This document shows, in pieces, positions 6,267 through 64,000 of a stretch of 64,000 nucleotides of DNA; within the stretch, counting starts at the first letter, position 1; each line of letters opens with the position of its first letter. Origin of the DNA: Thermoplasmata archaeon (GTDB lineage Archaea > Thermoplasmatota > SW-10-69-26 > JACQPN01 > JAJPHT01); NCBI GenBank assembly GCA_034667685.1, contig JAXDQU010000106.1, forward strand, positions 84,043-148,042. Direction: 5' to 3'. Below the pieces are notes generated by a model. The model did no database searches, was not told where the DNA came from, and saw only the letters and a program-made list of their open reading frames with translations. The position numbers and the translations under genes are program-made.

Positions 6267-6584
6267 ATGGGGCTCGAAACGCGCGTCTGGCGCACCGGAT
6301 TCGAATCCAACCTCCTCACGACCGTGCCGAAGGCCGTCCGCGTCCAGTTGAGCCTCGGGCCGGCGGACCGGCTGCGCTGGAACGTCGAGGGGGGTTACGC
6401 GCGGGTGACCAAGGCCGGGGCGGAGGAGGGGGAGGCCACCACCTACCGGCTCTACAAGCAGACGCGCGGGAACAGCCTCTACACCTCCCTCCCGGCCGCG
6501 GTCGCGGAGCAGCTCCGCATGAACGAGCGCTCCCGCGTCGAATGGGAGCTCCAGGGGACGGCCGCCCATGTCCGCCGCGCTTGA
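6267..6584 (+). CDS. Tandem AbrB/MazE/SpoVT-type (swapped-hairpin) DNA-binding protein
   Basis: Two internal AbrB-like repeats: LLTTVPKAVRVQLSLGPADRLRWNVEG and SLYTSLPAAVAEQLRMNERSRVEWELQG. Confidence 0.75.
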   Translation: MGLETRVWRTGFESNLLTTVPKAVRVQLSLGPADRLRWNVEGGYARVTKAGAEEGEATTYRLYKQTRGNSLYTSLPAAVAEQLRMNERSRVEWELQGTAAHVRRA

Positions 6585-7431
6585 CCGGCTCGGCAACGCC
6601 CCCGCCGTCCTCCTGGTCGAGGCGCCGCCCGACGCGAAGCGCTTCCGCGCGCTCACGCGCATCAGCGACGACAAGCTGCGCAGCATCCCGCAGCAGGCGC
6701 GCGAATGCGCCGCCTACGTCGAGGGCCTCGGCGCGCCCGCCGCGCTCGACGGCGTCTACAACGTCGGCGAGCACAGCGGCTTCAGCATGACCCAGAGCCC
6801 CATCTACCAGCAGCTTCTCGCCGACGCGCGCAACGGCCGGTTCCACGCGCTGGTCGTCCGCGACAGCAGCCGCCTGGGGCGCGACTACTGGGAGAAGATG
6901 GGCACGCTGCGCGACCTGCGCGCCGCCAAGATCGAGTTCCACGTCATCGAGGACGGCGGCGCGTTCGACTTCGAGGACCGCCTCCACAAGGTCAAGAGCT
7001 GGGCGAGCACGTGGGCCGACGAGGAGAAGAAGCGCGAGGAGATCCGCAAGTCGCTGCGCGCCACGCAAGCCTTGCGTGACATGGGCCTTCCCACCGGCCG
7101 CCCGCCCTACGGCTACCGCAGCGCGAAGGACGCCAGGCTGGGCCGGCGCGTCTGGCGGGCGGAGCCGCGCGAGGCCGACGCCGTGCGCGCCCTCTACGCC
7201 GCGCTCCTGGCCGAGCCCGCCGCCAACCTCAGCGCGCTGGGCCGCGAGCACGACCTCACGCCCAGCCAGGTCGACCGGATCCTCGGCAACCCGTGCTACC
7301 AGGGCGGTTTCCTCTGGGAGGGCGCATTCCGCGCCGCGGCGCCGGAGGTCGTGCCGGCGCTGGTGAGCCCGGAAGAGTTCGCGCGCGTCCAGGCCATCCG
7401 GGCCCAGCGTCGCCGCGCGCCGCGCGAGTGA
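6568..7431 (+). CDS. Serine recombinase (resolvase catalytic domain plus short recombinase DNA-binding domain)
   Basis: RIS catalytic motif, SIPQQ, SGF, RLGRD, G-x-P-x-G-x-PPYGY, IL-x-NP-x-Y-x-G, PALVSPEEF. Confidence 0.85.
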   Translation: MSAALDRLGNAPAVLLVEAPPDAKRFRALTRISDDKLRSIPQQARECAAYVEGLGAPAALDGVYNVGEHSGFSMTQSPIYQQLLADARNGRFHALVVRDSSRLGRDYWEKMGTLRDLRAAKIEFHVIEDGGAFDFEDRLHKVKSWASTWADEEKKREEIRKSLRATQALRDMGLPTGRPPYGYRSAKDARLGRRVWRAEPREADAVRALYAALLAEPAANLSALGREHDLTPSQVDRILGNPCYQGGFLWEGAFRAAAPEVVPALVSPEEFARVQAIRAQRRRAPRE

Positions 7432-7443
7432 ACGGCCGCGCCC

Positions 7444-8451
7444 TCACGGCGAGGGCTTCTGCTGCTGGAAGCCCAGGAGGACGTTCATGAGGTCCGGCGA
7501 GCGGATGCGTTGCGTCATCTCGCGGCGCTCCAGGATCTTCTGCACGTTCTCGAAGAGCGTCTCGTCGATGACGGGCGGGATCACGTGCGGCTCGGCGCGG
7601 ACGAACTCGCCCTTCCAGTTGAATCCGCCCGTGTAAGCGCGGTTGCGGAGGATCTTGCGCAGCAATTGCCGCGAGACGCCGAAGCGGCGGCTCAGGCTGC
7701 TGAACTCCTCGTAGGGCTCCTCGACGAGCGAGGCGAAGATGGCGCGCACCTTGGCGGCCTCGGGCGTCTGGCGCCACACCTTCCGCCGGGAGACGGGGTC
7801 GATGGCGGGCTCGTAGCCGTACGGGAGCGAGGTGGTGGGGAAGCGCGCGTCGCGGATCGCCTGGGTGGCGCGCATGCTCTTGCGGATCTCCTCGAGCTTC
7901 TTGCCCTCGTCGCCCCACGTGTTGGCGAACGAGCGCACCTTGCTCATGCTGTCCTCGTAGTCGAAGAAGCCGCCGTCCTCCAGGATGTGCAGCTCGACCT
8001 TGGCGCGGCGCAGGTCGCGGATGGTGCCCATCTTCTCCCAGTAGTCGCGGCCCAGGCGCGCGCCGTCGCGGGCCACGAGCGCGTCGAACTGCCCGGCCTC
8101 CGCGTCGTGGAGGACCTGGCTCATGATGGGGCTCTGGTCGATCTTGAAGCCGCTGTGCTCGCCGAGGCTGTAGACGCGGTCGATGATGCCGCCGATCTCC
8201 TCGGCGTCGGCGCGGCGCGCGCCCGCGACGGCGTCGCCCCAGGCGTAGCGGACGCACTCCTTGACCTGCTGGGGGATCGAGAGCAGCTTGTCGTCGCTGA
8301 TGCGCACGAGGACGCGGAAGACCTTCGAGCCGCGGGCCTTGAGCGCGGCGGTCTCTTCGGGACGGAGGAGGTCGATCACGCGCGGCTCACGGTCGTCGGC
8401 GTCCTTCAGGCGCCGGTCGACCTCCGCAAGAAACGCGTCCAGGGTGTGCAT
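7444..8451 (-). CDS. Serine recombinase, convergent paralog of 6568-7431
   Basis: VRISDDKLLSIPQQ, GEHSGF, RLGRDYWEKMGT, PYGY, ILRNRAYTG, PVIDETLF. Confidence 0.85.
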   Translation of the reverse strand: MHTLDAFLAEVDRRLKDADDREPRVIDLLRPEETAALKARGSKVFRVLVRISDDKLLSIPQQVKECVRYAWGDAVAGARRADAEEIGGIIDRVYSLGEHSGFKIDQSPIMSQVLHDAEAGQFDALVARDGARLGRDYWEKMGTIRDLRRAKVELHILEDGGFFDYEDSMSKVRSFANTWGDEGKKLEEIRKSMRATQAIRDARFPTTSLPYGYEPAIDPVSRRKVWRQTPEAAKVRAIFASLVEEPYEEFSSLSRRFGVSRQLLRKILRNRAYTGGFNWKGEFVRAEPHVIPPVIDETLFENVQKILERREMTQRIRSPDLMNVLLGFQQQKPSP

Positions 8452-12482: not shown

Positions 12483-12529
12483 GATGCGGGGGACGCGGCG
12501 AGGCCGCCTTATAGGTGACGCCGCCCGAC

Positions 12530-12750
12530 GCGGCACCTGCACGCTCGCCCCGACGCCTGGTCGCGCCAGCCGGCGCCGGGCGCCGCCGCGAAGAACGCTC
12601 TAGAGCATTGTTGGGCAAGGTGGCGCAAGGTAGCGCGAGGCGGCGCCGGGTCGGTGCAGCCAGCGCCGCGTGCCGCATGGCGCCACTTTCGGGCACCTCC
12701 GTTGCGCATTGCCTTCCTCGGGTGCCGTCGTCGGGTGGTTTGGCGCTTCT
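12530..12750. repeat. Non-coding element copy A: CTAG-centred 22-bp pseudo-palindrome with phased GGCGCC-like boxes
   Basis: AAGAACGCTCTAGAGCATTGTT at 12591-12612; GGCGCC-like hexamers at 12532, 12552, 12572, 12622, 12642, 12662; homologous to 20770-20965. Confidence 0.7.
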
Positions 12751-14694: not shown

Positions 14695-17600
14695 GTGCGC
14701 CAGCCAGCCGTTTCGAGGATCGCCGTCATCTGGATCTCCGCGCTCACGCTGACGCCCGTCGTGGGCGGCGCTTGGGCCGATGCCCAGCTTCTCCCCGCGC
14801 CGACGGGCTTCTCCGCCGTCGCGCTTTCCCCGAGCGCCATCGCCCTTTCGTGGGACGCCGTGGACGGCGCGCACTCGTACCACGTCGAGCGTTTCGCGGG
14901 CGAGTCGTGGACGCCCGTCGCGGACGTCAACGCGACGAACGTCACCGACGCGGGCCTTGAGGCCAACACGTCCTACACGTACCACGTCTGCGCGTGGGAC
15001 GGCTCCGCCTGCGGCGTCGTCTCGGAGAGCGCGAGCGCGACCACGCTCCCCACTCCGCCGCCCGCCGCGCCCGCCTCCCTCGTCGCCACGCGCGGCTCGG
15101 GCAGCGCCTACGCCGACGTCCACCTGGCATGGAGCGCCGTCGAGGGCGCGACCGGCTACACGCTCTCGCGCGCCGACGCGGCGAACGAGACCACCCTCGT
15201 CTACGCGGGCAACGCCACGGGCTTCGACGACCTCGCGCTCGCCGGCGGCGCGTACGTCTGGAGCGTCGCCGCGACGTCGGACGCCGGGACCAGCGCGCCC
15301 ACGGCGAGCAGCTCCCTCGTGGTCCCCGCGGGTCCGCCCGTCACGGACCTGCGCGCGACGGGGCTCACGAGCACCTCGCTCTCGCTCGTCTGGGACGCGC
15401 CGCAGGGCGCCGCCGGCTTCCTCGTCAACGGCACGCCCGTCGAGGCCGCGCAGCTTGACCTCGCGGACCTCGTGGCGTGCGGCTCGTACTCGTTCGACGT
15501 CGTCGCGCGGTACGAGGGCGGCGTGAGCGACCCCGTCACGCTCCGCGTCGCGCTGCCAGGCTGCATGCTCTGGTACGACGCCGCCTCGCCCGCCAACTCG
15601 GCCACGCAGCTCGCCGACCTGAGTGCCGCGGGCGACGACGGCGCGCTCCTGAACATGGCCGCGGGCCCCGCCAACGGCACGCTCGCCTTCGACGGCGTCG
15701 ACGACCTCGTCGCGGGCGGCGCGCTCTTCCACGCGCCCGACTCCTTCACCGAGGCCGTCCGCTTCCGCACCACGAGCGCCTCCGGCATCCTCGTCTCGTT
15801 CCAGGACTCGCGCGACCTCGCCCCGTCGCGCTTCGACCGGCGCCTCTTCCTCGACGGCCAGGGGCGCGTCGGGTTCGGCGTCTGGGCGGACGGCGCGCCC
15901 GATGACCCGCGCGTGATCCGCAGCGACGCGCGCTTCGACGACGGCCAGTGGCACACCGCGGTCGCCACGATCGGCGCCACCGGCTCCGACGCGGGCGCGA
16001 TGCTCTACGTCGACGGCACGCTCGTCAACCAGACCCCGAGCAACGACAAGCAGGTCTACGACGGCTACTGGGTCGTGGGCGGCAGCCGCAACACGTACTG
16101 GGAGAGCGTCCTCCCGCAGCCCATGTTCCGCGGCGAGATCGCGATGGTGAAGGTCTACGACGGCATCGTCCCGCCCGCGCCCGCCGCGCTGGGCCCCGCC
16201 ACGCACCTCGCCGTCTCGCGCGGCCCCGCGCTGGGCGAGGCGAGCCTGTCCTGGTGGCCCGCGCCCGGCGCCGAGCGCTACGCGGTCAACCTCACCGGCC
16301 CCTCCTTCCCCAACGGCACCGAGGTCGACGCGGGCCCCGCGCGCACGGCCGACTTCCCGGACCTCCTCGCGGGCGACTACGCGTTCACCGTGCTATCGTT
16401 CCAGGGCGACGCCTCGGCCGCGAGCGAGCCCGTCACCGGCCAGCCCGCCACCGCGCCCGGCGCGCCCGCGAGCGTCACCGCCACGCCGGTCTCGCCTGGC
16501 GTGGTCCGCGTCGCGTGGAGCGCGCCCGACGACACGGGCGGCGTGCCCGTCCAGCATTACGAGGTCTCCGCGGACGGCGAGCCGCGCACCACCACGCTGG
16601 GCACCACGTTCGGCGTCAACCTCGCGGTGCCCGAGGACGGCGCCGTCCACGTCTTCGGCGTCCGCGCCAACACCAGCGCCGCGGCGGGCCCGGAAGCGCT
16701 CGCCAACGCCACCGCCGCCTGGGCGCCCAGCCCCGTCGCCTCGCTCTGGAGCGAGCCGGGCGCCGAGGTCGGCGAGGTCAACCTCACGTGGCTGGCGCCC
16801 GCCACGCACGCCGCGCCCCTCGCGGGCTATCACGTCTGGCGCGACGGCGCCATCGTCGCCACCACCAACGCCACGCGCTTCGTCGACGCCAACCGCACGC
16901 CCGGCGCGCGTTCCTCCTACAACGTCACCGCCGCGAGCGACGCGGGCGAGAGCGCCGCGGGCCTCACCGTGACCGAGGTCGCGCGCCCCGCGCTCGTGGG
17001 CTGCCCGACCAGCACGAGCGTCTCGGTCTACGCCTGCCAGCAGGTGCCCTTCGGGCTCTACGCGCTGCCGGCCAACGCCTCCTCGCCCACGAGCATGCGG
17101 TGCGACGACTGCGTCAGCTCGCCGCTCGCGCTCCCCTTCGCGTTCCCGATGTTCGGGCGTCTCTACACGCAGGTCAACGTCACGACCAACGGCCTGCTCC
17201 TTTTCGGGAGCACCGACTACGGATGGAGCTACTCGCCCGTCGGCATCCCCACCGATGGCTCGCCCGCCGGCATGATCGCCGGCTACTGGAGCGACCTCGA
17301 CGGCCGCGCCATCGGCAACGTCCGCTACGCGACGCTCGGCGAGGCGCCCCACCGCCTTTTCGTAGTCTCGTGGGAGCGCATGGGCGAGTACAGCTGTTAC
17401 TACCTTCCCTACTGCGGTCCCGGCAACGCCACGTTCCAGGTCGCGCTCCACGAGGACAGCGGCGCCGTCGAATACCAGATCGCCTTCGCGGCGATGGACC
17501 ACCACTACGCCACCGTCGGCCTCGAGGATGAGACGGGAACCTACGGCCTGACGATCTTCCACGGCACCGCGCCTCTCGCGCGCCAGGGCTTCCTCCTGAT

Positions 17601-20600
17601 CCCGCCCAATGCGCCGCCCGTCGGAGCGCCCACCGGCGTCTCCGTCCACGCGACCGCGCCGCTCACCCTTGATGTCAACTGGACGCCGCCCGCGGACGCG
17701 ACCTCGAGCGCCGTCTTCGGCTACCGCGTCTACCGCGACGGGACGCTGATCGCCACGCCTGATGGCACGAGCTACGCCGACGAGCTCTCCGCGCCCGGCA
17801 ACCACACCTACCAGGTCGCGGCGCTCAACGCGCGCGGTGAAGGTCCGAGCAGCGCGCCCGTCAACGGCACCGCCTACCAGGACGTCGCGCCGCCCACGCT
17901 GACGCTCGACCCCGAGGCGCCCGACGGATTGGGCGGCGTCTACAACCACACGCCCGCCGCCACCGCGATCCCAGGCGGCGCCCCGCCCAACCCCTCCGAG
18001 TCGCCCTGCGATTGCGTCGTCCGCGAGGTCGCCTCCGGGCCCAGCGTGGACGTCCTCGACTCGTTCGACGGCGCCGCGCACGCCTCTCCCTACACGGTGA
18101 CGGGCGAGGGCGAGCACACGCTCACGGCGCGCACGTTGGACGCGAACGGGAACGTCGTCGCGCAATCCGAGCCGCGGACCCTCACGCTCGACACGACGGC
18201 GCCCACCGCCACCGTCTCGACCGGCGCCGAGGGAAGCGCGCTCTCCGTCACGTTCGCGTTCAGCGAGCCCATGTCGCCCGACGCCACGCTCGCCGCGCTC
18301 GCGGCGCCCGCCGGCTGGACCGCCGCGCTCGCCAAGGACGCGCGGAGCCTCGTCGTCTCGGGCACCGGCGCGCCAGGCGCCGCGTACGACGTCACGCTCT
18401 CCTCCGCCGCCACGGACGCGCACGGCACTCCCCTCGCCGCGCCCGCGACGGGCCACGTCGAGGGCCCCGCGCCGCCGCCTCCGCCCCCGCCGCCCGCTCC
18501 GCCGGCGCCGCGCGTGCCCGGCGCGCCCGGCGCGCCCAGCGTCTCGTTCCACGACGGCCGCGTCGACGTCGCGTGGTCCGCCCCCTCCGACGCGGGCACC
18601 TCGCCCGTCTTCCGCTACACGCTGCTGCGCAACGGCCAGGCGATCTCCACGCAGCCCGGCACGAGCTACCAGGACGCGGCCGTGACGCCCGGCGCGACGT
18701 ACGCCTACAGCGTCGCCGCCACCAACACGCAGGGCACCGGCCCCGCGAGCGGCGCCACGAGCGTCACGATCCCCGGCGCCGCGCCCACGAGCGTCCTCGC
18801 GCTCAGCGGCGCGCCCCAGGATGGCTGGTACGGCGCGAGCCCGACCGCGAGCTTCAGCGCCACGCCCGCCGACGCGCAGGTGAGCTATCAATTGGACGGC
18901 GGCCCCGCCGCGACGTACGCCTCGCCCTTCGCCATCCCTGCCGGCCGCCACACGCTGAGCTGGCACGCCACGCGCCCCGGCTCGCCCGACGAGGCCGCGC
19001 GCTCGCAGACGATCGACGTGGACCCTGACGCGCCAATCATCGCTGGCGCGGGGCTCTCGGGCTCCAGCGTGCACGCCCGCGTCACCGACGCGCTCTCCGG
19101 CGTCGCCAGCGTCGCGGCGCTGCTGCCCGACGGCACGAGCGTCCCCCTCGCCGCGAGCGGCGACGACTACGCCGGCACGCTCTCGCCCACCGCGCCCGGC
19201 GTCCATGCGATCTCGATCATTGCGCGCGACCACGCGGGCCACGAGTCGCGCGCCTCGGCCGGCACGCTCACGATCGCCGCGCCGCCCGCCGCGGACAACG
19301 CGACGACCAACGGCACCGCCACCAACGCGACGACGTCCGGCCCCACGCCCAGCTCGCCCACGCCGCCCACGGGCGGCGGCAGCGGCACCAGCGGCGGGAG
19401 CAGCGGCGGCAGCGGTTCCGGCGGCGCGCCCCTGGAGCAGGCCAGCGTCACCCCCTCGTCGAGCACGCCGGCCCCCGGCGCCCCCTCGCCCACGCCGGCG
19501 CTCACCGTCACGCAGGACCCCAACGAGACGGCCCCGCTGGACGCCGGCGCGCGTGGTCAGGTGCGCCTGCACGTGAGCAACGTGGACGACCCCTCGCTCG
19601 TGCGCCTCGTCGTCGTCGACGAGAACGGCCACGAGACGCCGCTGGGCTCGGGCACCGACGCGACGTGGGACACCACGCGCAGCGACGACGGGTACTACAC
19701 CGTCGAGGCGCGCGAGGGCAACGTCACGCTCGCCAGCACGCGCGTCCTCGTGCGCAACGCCTTCCTCAGCGGCGCCGAAGCCGCGGGCGGCGTCGCGCTG
19801 GGCGTGGGCGCGGCCGCACTCACCAGCGTCGCGAGCAACGCGCTCACCTCGAGCGCCCTGGGCGCGGCCTCCGCGACGGCCAGCAGCGCCACGAGCGCGG
19901 CCTCCGGCGCCGCCACCAGCACCGGCGGAAGCCAAGGCTTCAGCCTCTCGCAGTACCTCAAGGACCTCTTCACCGACGCGGGCAGCGACGCGCTGCGCGA
20001 CAAGACGAAGAACGTCGCCTCCATCGAGCGCCGCCGCCGCATCGCCAGCAGCATCGCGCTGGTCGCCACGGTCTCGCTCATCGCCGTGTTCTACAGCGTC
20101 GCCGAATCGAGCGCCTACACGTGGCGCGCGTTCCTCGGCGTGCTCCCCCTCGTGGGCGCGGCCGCCGTCATCCTCGCGCTCCAGAAGTACGGCAGCGAGT
20201 CGCTCATCGCCCACCTCTCAGGCGCGCGCGTCCGCTTCCGCATCTGGATCGCCGGCGTCGCCTCGCTCCTCGTCTCCACGCTCGCGTTCCACCAGCCCTT
20301 CGGCTACCCCGGCTACGTCGACAACGGCGTCGAGACCACCGAAGCCGAGAAGCGCCTCGCGGGCCACCGCGCCCTCGCCATCCTGGGCATCACGAGCGCG
20401 TGGAGCCTCGTCTTCGTCCTCGCCGGCCACCTCGGCCTCTACGGCTTCGGCAGCATCGGCGTCGCGATGGCCGTAAGCGCCCTCGCCACCGCCGCGATGC
20501 CCTTCGGCCCCCTCCCCGGCAAGGAGGTCTGGCGCTGGAGCAAGCTCGCCTCCCTCGCGGCGGCCGTGGGCGCCCTCGCGCTCTACGTCACCTACGAGAT

Positions 20601-20769
20601 GGCGCTCCTCCCCGAGTGGGCGCTCATCACGGTTGGCCTCGTGGGCGCCACCGGCTACGCCGCGACCGCCGTGAGCTTCCGTCGCCGCGAGCCCCCCGCC
20701 CGCAGCGTGCCCGTCCAGGACATGGACGCGGAGCGCCGAACGAAACGCGAGGCGGAACGCGAGGCGTGA
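14695..20769 (+). CDS. Giant surface glycoprotein: FN3 repeats, LamG/ConA-like domain, Ig-like domains, C-terminal M50/S2P-like membrane domain
   Basis: Signal peptide; many FN3 motifs (L-x-W...Y-x-Y-x-V-x-A); LamG motif DDGQWHTAVAT...LYVDG; many NxT/S sequons; about seven C-terminal TMs. Confidence 0.88.
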   Translation: MRQPAVSRIAVIWISALTLTPVVGGAWADAQLLPAPTGFSAVALSPSAIALSWDAVDGAHSYHVERFAGESWTPVADVNATNVTDAGLEANTSYTYHVCAWDGSACGVVSESASATTLPTPPPAAPASLVATRGSGSAYADVHLAWSAVEGATGYTLSRADAANETTLVYAGNATGFDDLALAGGAYVWSVAATSDAGTSAPTASSSLVVPAGPPVTDLRATGLTSTSLSLVWDAPQGAAGFLVNGTPVEAAQLDLADLVACGSYSFDVVARYEGGVSDPVTLRVALPGCMLWYDAASPANSATQLADLSAAGDDGALLNMAAGPANGTLAFDGVDDLVAGGALFHAPDSFTEAVRFRTTSASGILVSFQDSRDLAPSRFDRRLFLDGQGRVGFGVWADGAPDDPRVIRSDARFDDGQWHTAVATIGATGSDAGAMLYVDGTLVNQTPSNDKQVYDGYWVVGGSRNTYWESVLPQPMFRGEIAMVKVYDGIVPPAPAALGPATHLAVSRGPALGEASLSWWPAPGAERYAVNLTGPSFPNGTEVDAGPARTADFPDLLAGDYAFTVLSFQGDASAASEPVTGQPATAPGAPASVTATPVSPGVVRVAWSAPDDTGGVPVQHYEVSADGEPRTTTLGTTFGVNLAVPEDGAVHVFGVRANTSAAAGPEALANATAAWAPSPVASLWSEPGAEVGEVNLTWLAPATHAAPLAGYHVWRDGAIVATTNATRFVDANRTPGARSSYNVTAASDAGESAAGLTVTEVARPALVGCPTSTSVSVYACQQVPFGLYALPANASSPTSMRCDDCVSSPLALPFAFPMFGRLYTQVNVTTNGLLLFGSTDYGWSYSPVGIPTDGSPAGMIAGYWSDLDGRAIGNVRYATLGEAPHRLFVVSWERMGEYSCYYLPYCGPGNATFQVALHEDSGAVEYQIAFAAMDHHYATVGLEDETGTYGLTIFHGTAPLARQGFLLIPPNAPPVGAPTGVSVHATAPLTLDVNWTPPADATSSAVFGYRVYRDGTLIATPDGTSYADELSAPGNHTYQVAALNARGEGPSSAPVNGTAYQDVAPPTLTLDPEAPDGLGGVYNHTPAATAIPGGAPPNPSESPCDCVVREVASGPSVDVLDSFDGAAHASPYTVTGEGEHTLTARTLDANGNVVAQSEPRTLTLDTTAPTATVSTGAEGSALSVTFAFSEPMSPDATLAALAAPAGWTAALAKDARSLVVSGTGAPGAAYDVTLSSAATDAHGTPLAAPATGHVEGPAPPPPPPPPAPPAPRVPGAPGAPSVSFHDGRVDVAWSAPSDAGTSPVFRYTLLRNGQAISTQPGTSYQDAAVTPGATYAYSVAATNTQGTGPASGATSVTIPGAAPTSVLALSGAPQDGWYGASPTASFSATPADAQVSYQLDGGPAATYASPFAIPAGRHTLSWHATRPGSPDEAARSQTIDVDPDAPIIAGAGLSGSSVHARVTDALSGVASVAALLPDGTSVPLAASGDDYAGTLSPTAPGVHAISIIARDHAGHESRASAGTLTIAAPPAADNATTNGTATNATTSGPTPSSPTPPTGGGSGTSGGSSGGSGSGGAPLEQASVTPSSSTPAPGAPSPTPALTVTQDPNETAPLDAGARGQVRLHVSNVDDPSLVRLVVVDENGHETPLGSGTDATWDTTRSDDGYYTVEAREGNVTLASTRVLVRNAFLSGAEAAGGVALGVGAAALTSVASNALTSSALGAASATASSATSAASGAATSTGGSQGFSLSQYLKDLFTDAGSDALRDKTKNVASIERRRRIASSIALVATVSLIAVFYSVAESSAYTWRAFLGVLPLVGAAAVILALQKYGSESLIAHLSGARVRFRIWIAGVASLLVSTLAFHQPFGYPGYVDNGVETTEAEKRLAGHRALAILGITSAWSLVFVLAGHLGLYGFGSIGVAMAVSALATAAMPFGPLPGKEVWRWSKLASLAAAVGALALYVTYEMALLPEWALITVGLVGATGYAATAVSFRRREPPARSVPVQDMDAERRTKREAEREA

Positions 20770-20965
20770 GGCGCCTGGACGAGCGACCCGGCGCCGGCCC
20801 GAAGAAGGAGGCGCCGCGTAGGCCCAACCGGCGCCGCGTGCCTGCGCCAGGCACCACGTCGATGCACCAGGCGCCGGGTCGCGCAACGGGGCGCCGGGTG
20901 GCGCGACCTTGCCGCACCTTCACCATCGACGCTCTAGAGGATTGTTGCATTCGCGCGGCGCCTGG
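20770..20965. repeat. Non-coding element copy B (inverted relative to copy A)
   Basis: GGCGCC at 20770, 20790, 20810, 20830, 20870, 20890 and GGCACC at 20850 (exact 20-bp period); ATCGACGCTCTAGAGGATTGTT at 20925-20946. Confidence 0.75.
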
Positions 20966-21033
20966 CGCGAGCGCTTCGTGATATCAGAATCGGGCGTCGC
21001 TGGATTGTTCTCGCGTTCGCTCGGGCGGAGGAG

Positions 21034-21106
21034 TGCGGCGTGGGGGATTCGAACCCCCGGAGGGCAGCTTGGGAAGCTGCTGCGATAACCGCTACGCGAA
21101 CGCCGC
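21034..21106 (-). tRNA. tRNA-Gly(CCC)
   Basis: Cloverleaf: acceptor GCGGCGT/ACGCCGC, anticodon arm GCAGC-TTCCCAA-GCTGC, T arm GGGGG-TTCGAAT-CCCCC; CCA not encoded. Confidence 0.92.
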
Positions 21107-21254
21107 GGACGAGGCGGACGAGACGGCTTCTCCCGGATAAGCCCTGCGCCGGTCCGGCCGTCGCGGGGCTCGGCGCGAGCCGTAGTCCGGGCGCGTTCGG
21201 CTTCGTTGGCCGAACCAACAACTCTTAACTATGGGGGCGCTGACGGGAGGCTGG

Positions 21255-21356
21255 ATGCAAGAGGAGACGACGTTCCTGACGCTGTGCAAGTCGTGCGGCA
21301 CCGAGTTCCTCGCTCCTGGCAATTGCCCCGAGTGCGGCGCCGCGTTCCACTTCTAG
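21255..21356 (+). CDS. 33-aa CPxCG-type zinc-finger microprotein
   Basis: MQEETTFLTLCKSCGTEFLAPGNCPECGAAFHF; GGAGG at 21246-21250; TTAA box upstream. Confidence 0.7.
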   Translation: MQEETTFLTLCKSCGTEFLAPGNCPECGAAFHF

Positions 21357-39357: not shown

Positions 39358-39463
39358 GTGACCCCGAGAGGAAACCCGACGAACCCGAGGACCCGGGAAC
39401 CCGCGTTCTTGCGCCTCGGGTATGCGGGGTCCTCGGGTTCATCGGGTTTCCTCTCGGGGTCAC
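39358..39463. repeat. Long intergenic inverted repeat built from (G)AACCCGA-like units
   Basis: GTGACCCCGAGAGGAAACCCGACGAACCCGAGGACCC ... GGGTCCTCGGGTTCATCGGGTTTCCTCTCGGGGTCAC, between convergent genes. Confidence 0.85.
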
Positions 39464-43887: not shown

Positions 43888-43985
43888 CGTCGGGAGGCCG
43901 GAAGAGGGGAAGGGAGGAAGAGAGGAACCGGACGACCCGCCCGGTTTCCTCTCTTCCTCCCTTCCCCTCTTCCGGCCTCCCGACG
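43888..43985. repeat. Long inverted repeat with purine-rich and pyrimidine-rich arms
   Basis: CGTCGGGAGGCCGGAAGAGGGGAAGGGAGGAAGAGAGGAA ... TTCCTCTCTTCCTCCCTTCCCCTCTTCCGGCCTCCCGACG. Confidence 0.85.
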
Positions 43986-44829: not shown

Positions 44830-44902
44830 GGGTCCGTGGGGTAGCTTGGTATCCTTGGTGGTTCGGGACCACTTGACCGCGGTTCAAATCCGCGCGGACC
44901 CA
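44830..44902 (+). tRNA. tRNA-Pro(CGG)
   Basis: Acceptor GGGTCCG/CGGACCC, anticodon arm GGTGG-TTCGGGA-CCACT, T loop TTCAAAT; TTTCAAATA promoter upstream. Confidence 0.93.
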
Positions 44903-44999
44903 CTCGCCCGCGACGCTTGTCGCGGCGCCTCTTCTGGACCAGCGTGCGGTCCGCATCGAGCGAAACGCTAAGGCGCGACCCCTTGCTCACGCGGCGTCC

Positions 45000-47987: not shown

Positions 47988-48099
47988 GACGAAGGGAAGC
48001 CGGGGAAGAGGGGAAGCAAGGGAAGAGGGGAACTGGGGAACAAGGGCCCCCTTCTTCCCCTCTTCCCGTCTTCCCTCGCTTCCCCGGCTTCCCTTCGTC
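47988..48099. repeat. Long inverted repeat of GGGAAG-rich units
   Basis: GACGAAGGGAAGCCGGGGAAG... / ...CTTCCCCGGCTTCCCTTCGTC. Confidence 0.8.
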
Positions 48100-53674: not shown

Positions 53675-53751
53675 GCTTCGCTTCCCGCCATCACGCCAAG
53701 ACGCCAACACGCGGCGTGTTGGCGTCTTGGCGGGATGGCGGAAAGCGAAGC
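53675..53751. repeat. Long intergenic hairpin (CGCCAA-like units)
   Basis: GCTTCGCTTCCCGCCATCACGCCAAGACGCCAACACGC-G-GCGTGTTGGCGTCTTGGCGGGATGGCGGAAAGCGAAGC. Confidence 0.85.
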
Positions 53752-58467: not shown

Positions 58468-58539
58468 CGGTTTCCCCCCTTCCCATCCTCCTCCCTTCCC
58501 CTCTTCCGGAAGAAGGGAAGAGAGGAAGGGAGGAACCGG
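58468..58539. repeat. Imperfect pyrimidine/purine inverted repeat downstream of aguA
   Basis: CGGTTTCCCCCTTCCC...CTTCCGGAAG...GGAAGGGAGGAACCG. Confidence 0.6.
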
Positions 58540-58662: not shown

Positions 58663-58804
58663 CACCCGCCCGTTGTAGCGCTCCGGCAAGACGGGTTCTG
58701 GCCGCATGGTCGATCCAGGTCCGAGTCCGATTCCTCTTCCCATTCCGATTCCGGACTCGGAAGAGGAATCGGATGCGGAAGCGGGGTGAAACGATGAGCT
58801 TCAA

Positions 58805-62450: not shown

Positions 62451-62515
62451 GGGACTCTGGGCTCTGGACTCAAGGCTCAGGGCTCCGGAGCCCCGAGTCC
62501 AGAGCCCCGAGCCCG
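62451..62515. repeat. Inverted repeat of GG(A/G)CTC(T/A) heptamer units
   Basis: GGACTCTGGGCTCTGGACTC ... GAGTCCAGAGCCCCGAGCCC. Confidence 0.65.
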
Positions 62516-63734: not shown

Positions 63735-64000
63735 AGCCTTAGCCTCAGCCTCAGCCTACCATCCCCACCTTCTCCAGCCCGAACGAAACACGAAGGCACG
63801 AAGCCACGAAGAGCACGAAGATTCGCGGAGGCTTCGTGCTCTTCGTGGCTTCGTGCTCTTCGTGTTCCAGGGGCCCGAGGCTGAGGCTGAGGCTGAGGCT
63901 GAGGCTGAGGCTGAGGCTGAGGCTGAGGCTGAGGCTGAGGCTGAGGCTGAGGCTGAGGCTGAGGCTGAGGCTGAGGCTGAGGCTGAGGCTGAGGCTGAGG
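63735..64000. repeat. Nested inverted repeat ending in a (GAGGCT)n microsatellite that runs off the window
   Basis: AGCCT(C/T) x4 at 63735-63757; CACGAAG/CTTCGTG hairpin at 63787-63866; 20 full GAGGCT copies from 63877. Confidence 0.92.

What the first reader, a model, noticed from the sequence alone, without database searches (positions are those of the whole stretch)
20770..20990. Second, inverted copy of the element with seven GGC(G/A)CC boxes at exact 20-bp period
Seen: GGCGCC at 20770, 20790, 20810, 20830, 20870, 20890 and GGCACC at 20850, with variable 14-bp spacers, then GCGCGACCTTGCCGCACCTTCACCATCGACGCTCTAGAGGATTGTT. This aligns without gaps to the reverse complement of copy A (GCGCTACCTTGCGCCACCTTGCCCAACAATGCTCTAGAGCGTTCTT). 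In both copies a GGCGCC is centred 43 bp from the palindrome centre on the ACCTT side. It lies about 90 bp past the 3' end of tRNA-Gly. Inference: two-helical-turn phasing suggests iterons or a wrapped nucleoprotein complex. The skew flip looks similar but weaker here.
Basis: seen in the sequence. Interest (0 to 1): 0.72.

Follow-up and report, generated by a model that had tools for sequence, protein, structure and literature searches.

The report
Phased palindrome-box repeat in soil archaeon
Between two genes of an uncultured soil archaeon lies one of five scattered copies of a short DNA element made of evenly spaced mirror-symmetric boxes around a small core, which most likely serves as a docking array for an unknown DNA-binding protein and is not a replication origin or an RNA gene.

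Summary
Seven GGC(G/A)CC boxes sit at an exact 20-bp period (20770-20895). 0 of 20,000 dinucleotide shuffles gave a chain of even 3 boxes. The adjoining core aligns, inverted, with copy A at 12.6 kb.

The genome holds five such loci: A and B here, plus three on other contigs. Each has a left array of 2-7 boxes, an asymmetric core (CACCTTgCCCA...GCTCTAGAGC) and a right array of 1-3 boxes.

The full box is a 14-bp palindrome, cACC(C/A)GGCGCCG(G/C)GT. Its hexamer and outer A/T are conserved across 29 units, while the 6-nt linkers are near random.

The element was not found at any orthologous intergenic region I could read in same-genus genomes. The neighbouring genes are unrelated, and copy B lies between convergent genes.

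RNA folding, covariation and Rfam give no support for an RNA. No orc1/cdc6 gene lies on an element contig. The nearby twin serine recombinases are conserved in relatives that lack the element.

Best reading: a lineage-specific, insertion-derived intergenic repeat that forms a helically phased binding array for a dimeric DNA-binding protein. The binding protein and the role are unknown.

"Wrapped nucleoprotein complex" stays plausible; "iterons" is not supported. The scan has noted similar phased palindrome-box repeats on other DNA.

The parts
20766..20899 (+). Copy B, left array: seven 14-bp boxes starting at 20766, 20786, 20806, 20826, 20846, 20866 and 20886. The GGCRCC hexamer sits 4 nt into each box. 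Centre-to-centre spacing is exactly 20 bp. Box 1 overlaps the stop codon of the upstream gene.
20900..20949 (+). Copy B, asymmetric core: GGCGCG, two ACCTT(G/C) decamers (20906-20925), the near-palindrome GCTCTAGAGg (20931-20940) and GATTGTT. GC falls to about 0.60 here.
20953..20966 (+). Copy B, right arm: a single box GCGCGGCGCCTGGC, 67 bp after the start of the last left box.
12528..12671 (-). Copy A, inverted relative to B. Left boxes are at 12658-12671 and 12638-12651. The core carries GCTCTAGAGC at 12597-12606. Right boxes are at 12568-12581, 12548-12561 and 12528-12541. It lies between the dnaJ stop (12922) and the TATA-like CACCTATAAGG of the next operon.
20767..20769 (+). Boundary marker, not part of the element: stop codon of the 2024-aa fn3/LamG surface-protein gene (14695-20769).
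21034..21106 (-). Boundary marker, not part of the element: tRNA-Gly(CCC), convergent with the surface-protein gene. Copy B therefore has no promoter-bearing gene start on either side.

Best explanation
Copy B is one member of a five-copy, lineage-specific intergenic repeat family. Each copy has a left array of 2-7 boxes, a roughly 50-bp asymmetric core with a second short palindrome, and a right array of 1-3 boxes.

The box is a 14-bp palindrome, cACC(C/A)GGCGCCG(G/C)GT. It repeats every 20 bp, just under two helical turns.

The most likely mechanism works at the DNA level. A homodimeric sequence-specific DNA-binding protein occupies each palindrome, and neighbouring dimers touch. The array would then nucleate a cooperative filament or gently superhelical nucleoprotein complex over 60-140 bp, with the core as a distinct central site.

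The elements entered, or were built in, variable intergenic spots, often directly behind a stop codon, in this species' lineage only.

Shown: the periodicity, the palindromic symmetry, selective conservation of boxes against random linkers, dispersal to five loci, and failure to find the element in congeners.

Inferred: protein binding, cooperativity and wrapping, and the benefit. That benefit could be a barrier or roadblock between transcription units for the host, or recognition sites for the enzyme that spreads the element.
For: Significance of the phasing:
- 0 of 20,000 shuffles reach a chain of 3 boxes; the observed chain is 7.
- Chains of at least 4 boxes occur only at period 20 (2 loci) and its double, 40 (1 locus), and at none of nine control periods.
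- A three-tooth comb scan gives 17 windows in 5 clusters at period 20, against 2-5 windows at each of six control periods.

Family membership:
- An nhmmer profile built from three copies recovers copy D at E=1.8e-9 and copy E at E=2.7e-4.
- All five copies align with boxes, core and right boxes in register.

Conservation pattern over 29 units:
- The hexamer positions are kept in 27-29 of 29 units.
- A at position 0 is kept in 20 of 29 and T at position 13 in 23 of 29. The genome is only about 14.5% A and 14.5% T.
- Linker identity is 0.39, against 0.29 expected at random.

Spacing:
- Within arms the spacing is 20 bp, or a multiple where a degenerate box intervenes.
- Across the core it is 60, 67, 70, 70 and 80 bp.

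Not an ordinary minisatellite: in 80 arrays of four or more GGCGCC at 20 bp from other genomes, the median adjacent identity outside the hexamer is 0.88. None is at or below 0.50; copy B is 0.44.

Orientation: copy D is inverted relative to local transcription and copy B lies between convergent genes. The element therefore acts independently of orientation and of promoters.

Gain in this lineage:
- Loci A, B, C and E lack the element in G003, and locus D lacks it in G001-G004.
- Locus E shows a clean difference of about 150 bp next to a conserved native motif.
Against: - No protein was identified and no binding was tested.
- The family has only five copies in one metagenome-assembled genome.
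- No copy turned up in 40 relatives by strict pattern, in 20 other genomes of the class by profile (only 150 of thousands of candidates per genome were scored), or in the metagenome collection (8 of 8 hits unrelated). Conservation between strains therefore could not be measured.
- The 14-bp palindrome alone is not over-represented in the genome: 8 sites with at most 1 mismatch, which falls within the range of 40 composition-matched control palindromes.
- Two box-like sites in copy A (-79 and -92 from the palindrome) are out of register.
- Relatives and this genome carry other 10- and 20-bp periodic GC-rich arrays with different units. A sequence-independent cause of such periodicity is therefore not excluded.
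Confidence: 0.5

Rival explanations
1. It is a decayed 20-bp minisatellite with no function. A tandem repeat arose by slippage and is drifting apart, and the boxes are merely its slowest-decaying part.
For: Relatives carry 10- and 20-bp unit arrays at other intergenic sites.
Against: Neutral decay would erode boxes and linkers alike. Here the linkers are near random (0.39 against 0.29) while the hexamer is kept in 27-29 of 29 units, and the rare outer A and T are kept in 20 and 23 of 29.

The same box, spacing and core recur at five unlinked loci. None of 80 real minisatellites has spacer identity at or below 0.50.
Confidence: 0.12
2. It is a non-autonomous mobile element, and the phased boxes are binding sites for the transposase or recombinase that moves it. 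This would resemble the helically phased subterminal motifs of IS607-family ends. On this reading the boxes are conserved for the element's own spread, not for the host.
For: - The element is present here but not found at the orthologous loci read in congeners.
- 3 of 5 copies abut a stop codon within 8 nt.
- At locus E each congener carries a different filler at the same spot.
- IS1535 TnpA dimers bind four helically phased motifs and form a filament (PMC6188088, passages read).
- An earlier scan note describes this lineage as rich in small insertion-type repeats (e1-1409598).
Against: - The copies are only about 70% alike, so none is a recent transposition.
- No clear terminal inverted repeats or target duplication were seen at the one readable junction, locus E.
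- No Y1 (RAYT/IS200) transposase was found in the 99%-complete genome.
- Only 3 serine-recombinase hits exist, none beside an element other than the conserved pair 4 kb from copy A.
- That pair is present in all 4 congeners, where the element was not found.
Confidence: 0.2
3. It is an RNA-level element: a 3'-UTR structure, a terminator hairpin series or a small RNA gene.
For: 4 of 5 copies are co-oriented with the upstream gene. Because the boxes are palindromes, any two boxes can pair with each other.
Against: - Fold z-scores are -0.55 on the plus strand and -1.60 on the minus strand.
- The RNAalifold covariation term is positive, +3.72. The predicted pairs simply join identical boxes.
- Apart from 9 of 14 matches in one outer pair (half of them box flank), the spacers of copy B do not pair: 4 of 14 matches in each of the two inner spacer pairs (read, pair I18).
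- No Rfam match was found even at E up to 1.
- The symmetric A...T conservation points to double-stranded recognition.
- Copy D is in the opposite orientation to local transcription.
Confidence: 0.06
4. It is a replication-origin iteron set or a partition centromere.
For: Two-turn phasing and two arrays flanking a core resemble parC of plasmid R1 and the 20-bp repeats bound by pSK41 ParR (PMC9426499 and PMC3074162, passages read).
Against: - There are five dispersed chromosomal copies.
- The four Orc1/Cdc6 hits lie on contigs C64, C103, C42 and C23, none of which is an element contig.
- No AT-rich stretch is present.
- No partition genes appear among the neighbours scanned.
- The element was not found at syntenic sites in congeners.
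- The boxes are palindromes, not direct repeats.
Confidence: 0.04
5. Copies A and B are recombination sites for the twin serine recombinases at 6568-8451, making the 8.3-kb dnaJ / surface-protein segment invertible.
For: A and B are inverted repeats 8.3 kb apart, with a short palindrome that has a central TA.
Against: - The recombinase pair is conserved in all 4 congeners, whereas G003 lacks both elements at the syntenic sites.
- Gene order and orientation across the segment are the same in G003.
- The cores are only about 76% alike.
- Three further copies sit alone on other contigs.
Confidence: 0.04
6. It is an ordinary operator array of a gene-specific regulator controlling the adjacent genes as a regulon.
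For: In A and C the right array ends just upstream of a TATA-like box. Locus E precedes a membrane-anchored winged-helix gene.
Against: - The neighbouring genes are functionally unrelated: dnaJ and an RNA-processing operon, a surface protein and a tRNA, an aconitase-family gene, pheT and a small unknown gene, and an HTH protein.
- Copy B has no promoter on either side.
- In copy D the promoter lies on the opposite arm.
- The orthologous promoters work without the element in congeners.
Confidence: 0.04

Closest known systems
REP/BIME clusters of enterobacteria, especially BIME-2 tandem clusters (properties recalled, not read here)
   Same: They are dispersed, lineage-specific and strictly intergenic, and often lie directly behind stop codons. 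They consist of palindromic units at regular spacing separated by non-conserved linkers, and host DNA-binding proteins dock on them.
   Different: The units here are 14 bp, too short for the stable stem-loops that define REPs. There are five copies rather than hundreds. An asymmetric core separates two arms. No Y1/RAYT transposase was found in the genome.
Type II plasmid partition centromeres: parC of R1 (11-bp repeats), pB171 (10-bp) and pSK41 (20-bp repeats bound by ribbon-helix-helix ParR, forming a superhelical complex). Sources: PMC9426499 and PMC3074162, passages read
   Same: Helically phased short repeats bound cooperatively by dimers, with a 20-bp period in pSK41. Two repeat clusters flank a core in R1 (that detail is recalled). 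The outcome is a wrapped nucleoprotein complex.
   Different: This element is chromosomal, has five dispersed copies and has no parM/parR-like genes among the neighbours scanned. The boxes are palindromic rather than direct repeats. The element was not found in the congeners searched.
IS607-family transposon ends (IS1535 left end; PMC6188088, abstract and passages read)
   Same: Several short motifs in helical phase nucleate a filament of recombinase dimers over 60-80 bp. This is the nearest documented mechanism for the question 'what would bind such an array'.
   Different: There the motifs are 9-bp direct repeats about one turn apart, and they lie at the ends of a gene-carrying element. Here the boxes are 14-bp palindromes two turns apart, no transposase gene is attached, and the only nearby serine recombinases are conserved in genomes where the element was not found.
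Archaeal Lrp/FFRP-type operator arrays such as the three regularly spaced boxes of Ss-LrpB (recalled, not read here)
   Same: Regularly spaced palindromic boxes in an archaeon, with cooperative binding and DNA wrapping.
   Different: Those boxes are AT-rich at the centre, sit in the regulator's own control region and are conserved with the gene. Here the boxes are GC-rich, occur at five unrelated loci and have no adjacent Lrp gene.
Ordinary 20-bp-unit minisatellites of GC-rich prokaryotes, for example the GAGTGGCGCCTCCCGCACCT arrays of Agrococcus
   Same: GGCGCC recurs every 20 bp in intergenic DNA.
   Different: In those arrays the whole unit is repeated: median spacer identity is 0.88 and none of 80 is at or below 0.50. 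In copy B the spacer identity is 0.44.

Membership tests
Replication-origin iterons / archaeal origin | Lies next to the initiator gene (rep, or orc1/cdc6) | tested here: not met
   The four Cdc6_C hits are on C64, C103, C42 and C23. The elements are on C106, C85, C21 and C9. Contigs are short, so linkage beyond a contig cannot be excluded.
Replication-origin iterons / archaeal origin | An AT-rich unwinding element beside direct repeats | tested here: not met
   The lowest GC in 50-bp windows is 0.56-0.60. The boxes are palindromes, not direct repeats.
Simple tandem repeat (minisatellite) | The whole unit, spacer included, is repeated | tested here: not met
   Adjacent identity outside the hexamer is 0.44 in copy B, and 6-nt linker identity is 0.39 against 0.29 at random. 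80 true arrays have a median of 0.88 and a minimum of 0.55. Tandem Repeats Finder reports only a weak 10-bp row at 20870-20904.
REP/BIME (REPIN) | Palindromic units that form stable stem-loops, and a RAYT (Y1) transposase in the genome | tested here: not met
   No PF01797 hit in the 99%-complete genome. Fold z-scores are -0.55 and -1.60.
REP/BIME (REPIN) | Intergenic, often just past stop codons, lineage-specific | tested here: met
   All 5 copies are intergenic and 3 of 5 lie within 8 nt of a stop codon. The element was not found at the orthologous sites read in congeners.
MITE / non-autonomous transposon | Terminal inverted repeats plus a target-site duplication at the junctions | tested here: inconclusive
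   Only locus E has alignable flanks. The ends are box-like on both sides, and a 9-nt CGCGCACCC recurs at the left edge and 10 nt beyond the right edge, but this is explained equally well by box sequence.
MITE / non-autonomous transposon | Near-identical copies from recent transposition | tested here: not met
   Mean column identity among the five copies is 70%.
Type II partition centromere (parC) | Adjacent parM/parR genes, with direct repeats bound by ParR | tested here: not met
   Pfam scans of the neighbours show dnaJ, a methyltransferase, a surface protein, an MBL-fold protein, pheT, an ABC1 kinase, an aconitase-family protein and an HTH protein, and no partition genes. Binding itself cannot be tested with these tools.
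Described structured RNA families (Rfam 15) | A match to a covariance model | tested here: not met
   Only tRNA matches were found.
Site-specific inversion system (serine invertase with inverted sites) | Recombinase and sites occur together; the segment is found in both orientations | tested here: not met
   The recombinase pair is present in 4 of 4 congeners, but the sites are absent from G003 at both positions. Orientation is the same in G003. Alternative junctions in reads were not tested.

The most novel reading that the evidence does not exclude
These are a new class of archaeal insertion element that spreads as a ready-made nucleoprotein cassette. On this reading, phased 14-bp palindromes recruit a still unidentified dimeric protein into a filament around a central crossover or anchor site. 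The element would thus be defined by helically phased boxes rather than by terminal repeats or hairpins. Once inserted behind a gene, it would act as a protein barrier between transcription units.
Probability: 0.12. Interest if true: 0.7.

Novelty: new variant of a known kind. Interest (0 to 1): 0.45.

Why it matters
If the boxes do bind a protein, this would be a compact, sequence-defined example of a cooperative nucleoprotein array in an uncultured soil archaeon of the Thermoplasmata type, a group whose chromatin and gene-boundary biology is almost unknown.

The family also shows something about how intergenic DNA in this lineage turns over. Species-specific GC-rich periodic elements are inserted at the same spots, directly behind stop codons.

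The element is short and its rules are explicit: a 14-bp palindrome, a 20-bp period and a central core. It can therefore be synthesised and used directly as bait to find the binding protein.

Its reach is limited at present. There are five copies in one assembled genome, with no relatives to compare.

Tried and rejected
Searches for further copies:
- The strict core pattern, with up to 2 mismatches, found no match in 40 relatives outside G000.
- The sequence-only covariance model R1 was run over 21 genomes of the class. Only G000 gave full matches. The weak hits in G004 and G019 are other 10/20-bp arrays or noise. Only 150 of thousands of first-look candidates per genome were scored.
- The metagenome scan with CACCTTNNCCANNNNNGCTCTAGAG gave 8 loci, all unrelated sequence at 40-67% GC. 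Six are one integrase-like coding motif.
- A GTDB-wide scan for four GGCGCC at 20 bp returned more than 121 loci, of which I examined 80. All 80 have much higher spacer identity than copy B, and most are plain tandem repeats, so they are not relatives.

Sequencing runs: contigs from three soil DNA runs with a partial match stop at 20744 or 20751, the edge of the array. One metatranscriptome contig covers only 21057-21280. Nothing can be concluded about strain variation or transcription of the element.

tRNA-linked integration: no second copy of the tRNA-Gly 3' end exists in the window with up to 3 mismatches.

Long-hairpin reading of copy B: the inverted-repeat pair I18 rests mainly on the boxes. 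The outer spacer pair matches 9 of 14, half of it box flank, and the two inner spacer pairs match 4 of 14 each.

CCTTGCCCAA as a general operator: there are 8 sites in the genome. Two sit in element cores and two lie next to one another's look-alike intergenic sites. The rest lie inside predicted genes or are of uncertain context. I did not pursue this further.

The 14-bp palindrome as a genome-wide over-represented word: it is not.

Chromatin lead: the genome has an HU-type gene and one weak histone-fold hit. I found no way to connect them to the arrays.

Literature: a search for GGCGCC + archaea + palindrome + binding site found 0 papers. A search for Thermoplasmatota + intergenic repeats + soil listed nothing on such repeats among the 10 shown of 644. 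Subscription journals are not covered.

Full report
**The observation**

The window lies in contig C106 of a 3.48-Mb, 71% GC draft genome of 124 contigs. The organism is an archaeon: it has TATA-binding-protein genes. Earlier notes of this scan call it a soil Thermoplasmata archaeon; I did not verify the taxon.

GGCGCC occurs at 20770, 20790, 20810, 20830, 20870 and 20890, and GGCACC at 20850. The first box begins one base after the TGA of a 2024-aa fn3/LamG surface-protein gene.

The sequence ACCTTGCCGCACCTTCACCATCGACGCTCTAGAG follows at 20906-20939. Its only other match in the window is 12598-12631 on the minus strand, which is copy A. In both copies a GGCGCC is centred 43 bp from the centre of CTCTAGAG. 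tRNA-Gly(CCC) lies at 21034-21106 on the minus strand.

The phasing is far beyond chance. In 20,000 dinucleotide-preserving shuffles of 20700-21032, the mean number of GGCRCC was 0.92 against 8 observed. No shuffle gave a chain of 3 at period 20, against 7 observed. Across the genome, chains of at least 4 boxes exist only at period 20 (2 loci) and its double, 40 (1 locus). None exist at nine control periods.

**A family of five**

A profile built from A, B and a third copy on C85 found two more copies: C21:102436-102600 at E=1.8e-9 and C9:7872-8006 at E=2.7e-4. A three-tooth comb scan at period 20 recovers exactly these five clusters. That is 17 windows, against 2-5 windows at each of six control periods.

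All five align with boxes and core in register. Each has three parts:
- a left array of 2-7 boxes;
- an asymmetric core, CACCTTgCCCA followed by GCTCTAGAGC;
- a right array of 1-3 boxes.

The core palindrome varies: it is GCTATAGAGC in copy D, and in copy E it is replaced by CAACATGgcttCATGTTG.

Spacing within arms is 20 bp. Across the core it is 60, 67, 70, 70 and 80 bp.

Over 29 units the box is a 14-bp palindrome, cACC(C/A)GGCGCCG(G/C)GT. The hexamer is kept in 27-29 of 29 units, A at the first position in 20 of 29, and T at the last in 23 of 29. A and T are each only about 14.5% of this genome. The 6-nt linkers are 39% identical between neighbours, against 29% at random.

**What it is not**

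*A simple tandem repeat.* A scan of one genome per prokaryotic species for four GGCGCC at 20 bp gave more than 121 loci before the scan stopped. I examined 80. Their median spacer identity is 0.88 and none is at or below 0.50. Copy B is 0.44.

*An RNA, as far as can be seen.*
- Fold z-scores are -0.55 and -1.60.
- The alignment fold only pairs identical boxes and has a positive covariation term.
- Rfam gives nothing even at E up to 1.

*An origin.*
- The four Orc1/Cdc6 hits lie on other contigs.
- GC never falls below 0.56.

*A REP element in the strict sense.* No Y1 transposase was found in the genome.

*A conserved target of the nearby recombinases.* Twin serine recombinases lie 4 kb from copy A. 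They are conserved in all four congeners, whereas G003 has neither copy A nor copy B at the syntenic sites and has the same gene order.

**Context and history**

| Copy | One side | Other side |
|---|---|---|
| A | dnaJ 3' end | promoter of an operon: unknown protein, methyltransferase, Rrp4-like, RpoL, TruD |
| B | surface-protein gene 3' end | tRNA-Gly 3' end (convergent) |
| C | small conserved ORF | promoter of an aconitase-family gene |
| D | pheT 3' end | 147-aa gene, with its promoter on the left-array side |
| E | 498-aa gene 3' end | membrane-anchored winged-helix gene |

The neighbours share no function, and the orientation of the element is not tied to transcription.

In same-genus genomes the coding flanks align at 72-86% identity, but the element was not found. 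Loci A, B, C and E lack it in G003, and locus D lacks it in G001-G004.

At locus E, G003 has 5 bp where G000 has the roughly 150-bp element, next to a conserved native motif. G001 and G004 each have a different GC-rich filler at the same spot. The elements are therefore gains in this lineage at fast-changing intergenic positions.

Relatives carry other 10- or 20-bp periodic arrays with different units.

**Interpretation**

Three features together are what selection for binding of a two-fold symmetric protein to double-stranded DNA would leave:
- symmetric conservation of a palindrome, including its rare outer A and T;
- random linkers;
- exact two-turn spacing at five unlinked loci.

Neutral decay of a repeat would not leave this pattern. 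With 20 bp per step, successive dimers would be offset by roughly -34 degrees if the helix has 10.5 bp per turn (inference). That favours a gently superhelical filament.

Two documented analogues work this way. ParR on the 20-bp repeats of pSK41 forms a superhelical complex (PMC9426499 and PMC3074162, passages read). IS607-family TnpA forms a filament on helically phased motifs (PMC6188088, abstract and passages read).

The data do not show whether the array serves the host, for instance as a barrier between transcription units, or the element's own spread. No binding protein was identified.

**Limits**

- The family is known from one assembled genome only.
- Contigs of related strains break at the array edge, and the single RNA contig does not reach the array.
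- The profile search of relatives scored only 150 candidates per genome.
- Properties of REP/BIME, Lrp operators and R1 parC architecture are recalled, not read here.
- The scan has noted comparable phased palindrome-box repeats on other DNA (e1-3234917, e1-1465416). I did not re-test those.

Noticed in passing
window 6267-8451: An AbrB/MazE-type gene (6267-6584) is followed by two convergent Resolvase+Recombinase genes (6568-7431 on the plus strand, 7444-8451 on the minus strand). Both recombinases have close matches in all four same-genus genomes, and one has a match in a second genus.
   Followed up: partly
window 39373-39448, 43900-43973, 47994-48094, 53686-53740, 58508-58535, 58720-58784, 62452-62514, 63789-63864, 63877-64000: Many intergenic arrays of 6-9-bp units occur, most of them as head-to-head inverted pairs, for example (GGAAGAGA)n facing (TTCCTCTC)n. 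A perfect (GAGGCT)x20.7 run continues off the window end.
   Followed up: no
G000 contigs C24:1133, C124:62453, C34:92149, C89:38283, C43:2570, C52:7630, C54:28568, C95:9, C97:34 and others: A second, larger family of phased boxes: GGGAGGC (or its complement GCCTCCC) every 10 bp with variable 3-nt spacers. It often forms inverted arrays. The box contains the Shine-Dalgarno-like GGAGG.
   Followed up: no
whole genome G000: CTAG is about 12-fold under-represented: 768 sites against about 9190 expected from base composition. 3 of the 9 CTCTAGAG sites lie in this element family.
   Followed up: partly
G000:C85:30690-30992 (L009): A roughly 300-bp stretch upstream of the aconitase-family gene is well conserved with G003. 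It has a TATA-like GGCTTAAGCC, a strongly conserved segment and a 30-codon ORF. This is a possible small gene or non-coding RNA.
   Followed up: no
L010, L013, L015 (genome G007, another genus of the family): Arrays of 200-300 bp built from CCCGG-type 6/7-nt sub-repeats, three per 20 bp, sit directly upstream of TATA-like boxes and gene starts.
   Followed up: no
L033 (G004:C211), L036 (G004:C64): Arrays of a 20-bp unit made of two decamers, CCACCTGGCT and CGGCCTGGCT. One lies just past a tRNA gene and a partial duplicate of that tRNA's 3' end, which may be a trace of an integration.
   Followed up: no
L011 (G003:C40:124718-124767) and G003:C46:170303-170332: G003 has a perfect 30-bp palindrome, GTGGCGCCAGGCGTGCACGCCTGGCGCCAC, at two loci. 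At one locus a third GGCGCC box lies 20 bp further on.
   Followed up: partly
L082, L091, L092, L101, L103, L117, L124, L136, L137, L144, L146, L148, L150, L154, L156-L158 (Agrococcus species): Agrococcus genomes carry many dispersed arrays, up to 18 units long, of a 20-bp unit close to GAGTGGCGCCTCCCGCACCT. Some switch to the reverse-complement unit midway, giving head-to-head arrays.
   Followed up: no
window 44830-44903: The whole-window Rfam run at gathering threshold missed tRNA-Pro(CGG). A local run found it at 52.7 bits, so the miss was a filter effect and the gene is not doubtful.
   Followed up: yes
G000:C9:8010-8030 and G000:C124:49480-49520: A motif TTGGGCAAGGCGCGCACC followed by CCCGAAAGG occurs in two intergenic regions. 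It is conserved at the first of them in G003, G001 and G004 (as AAGGCGCG(T/C)(A/G)CC). Its reverse complement resembles the element core CACCTTGCCCAA.
   Followed up: partly
G000:C36:184-243 and G000:C76:30689-30779: Homopolymer runs of about 60 C and more than 70 G, the latter at a contig end. These are probably assembly artefacts.
   Followed up: no
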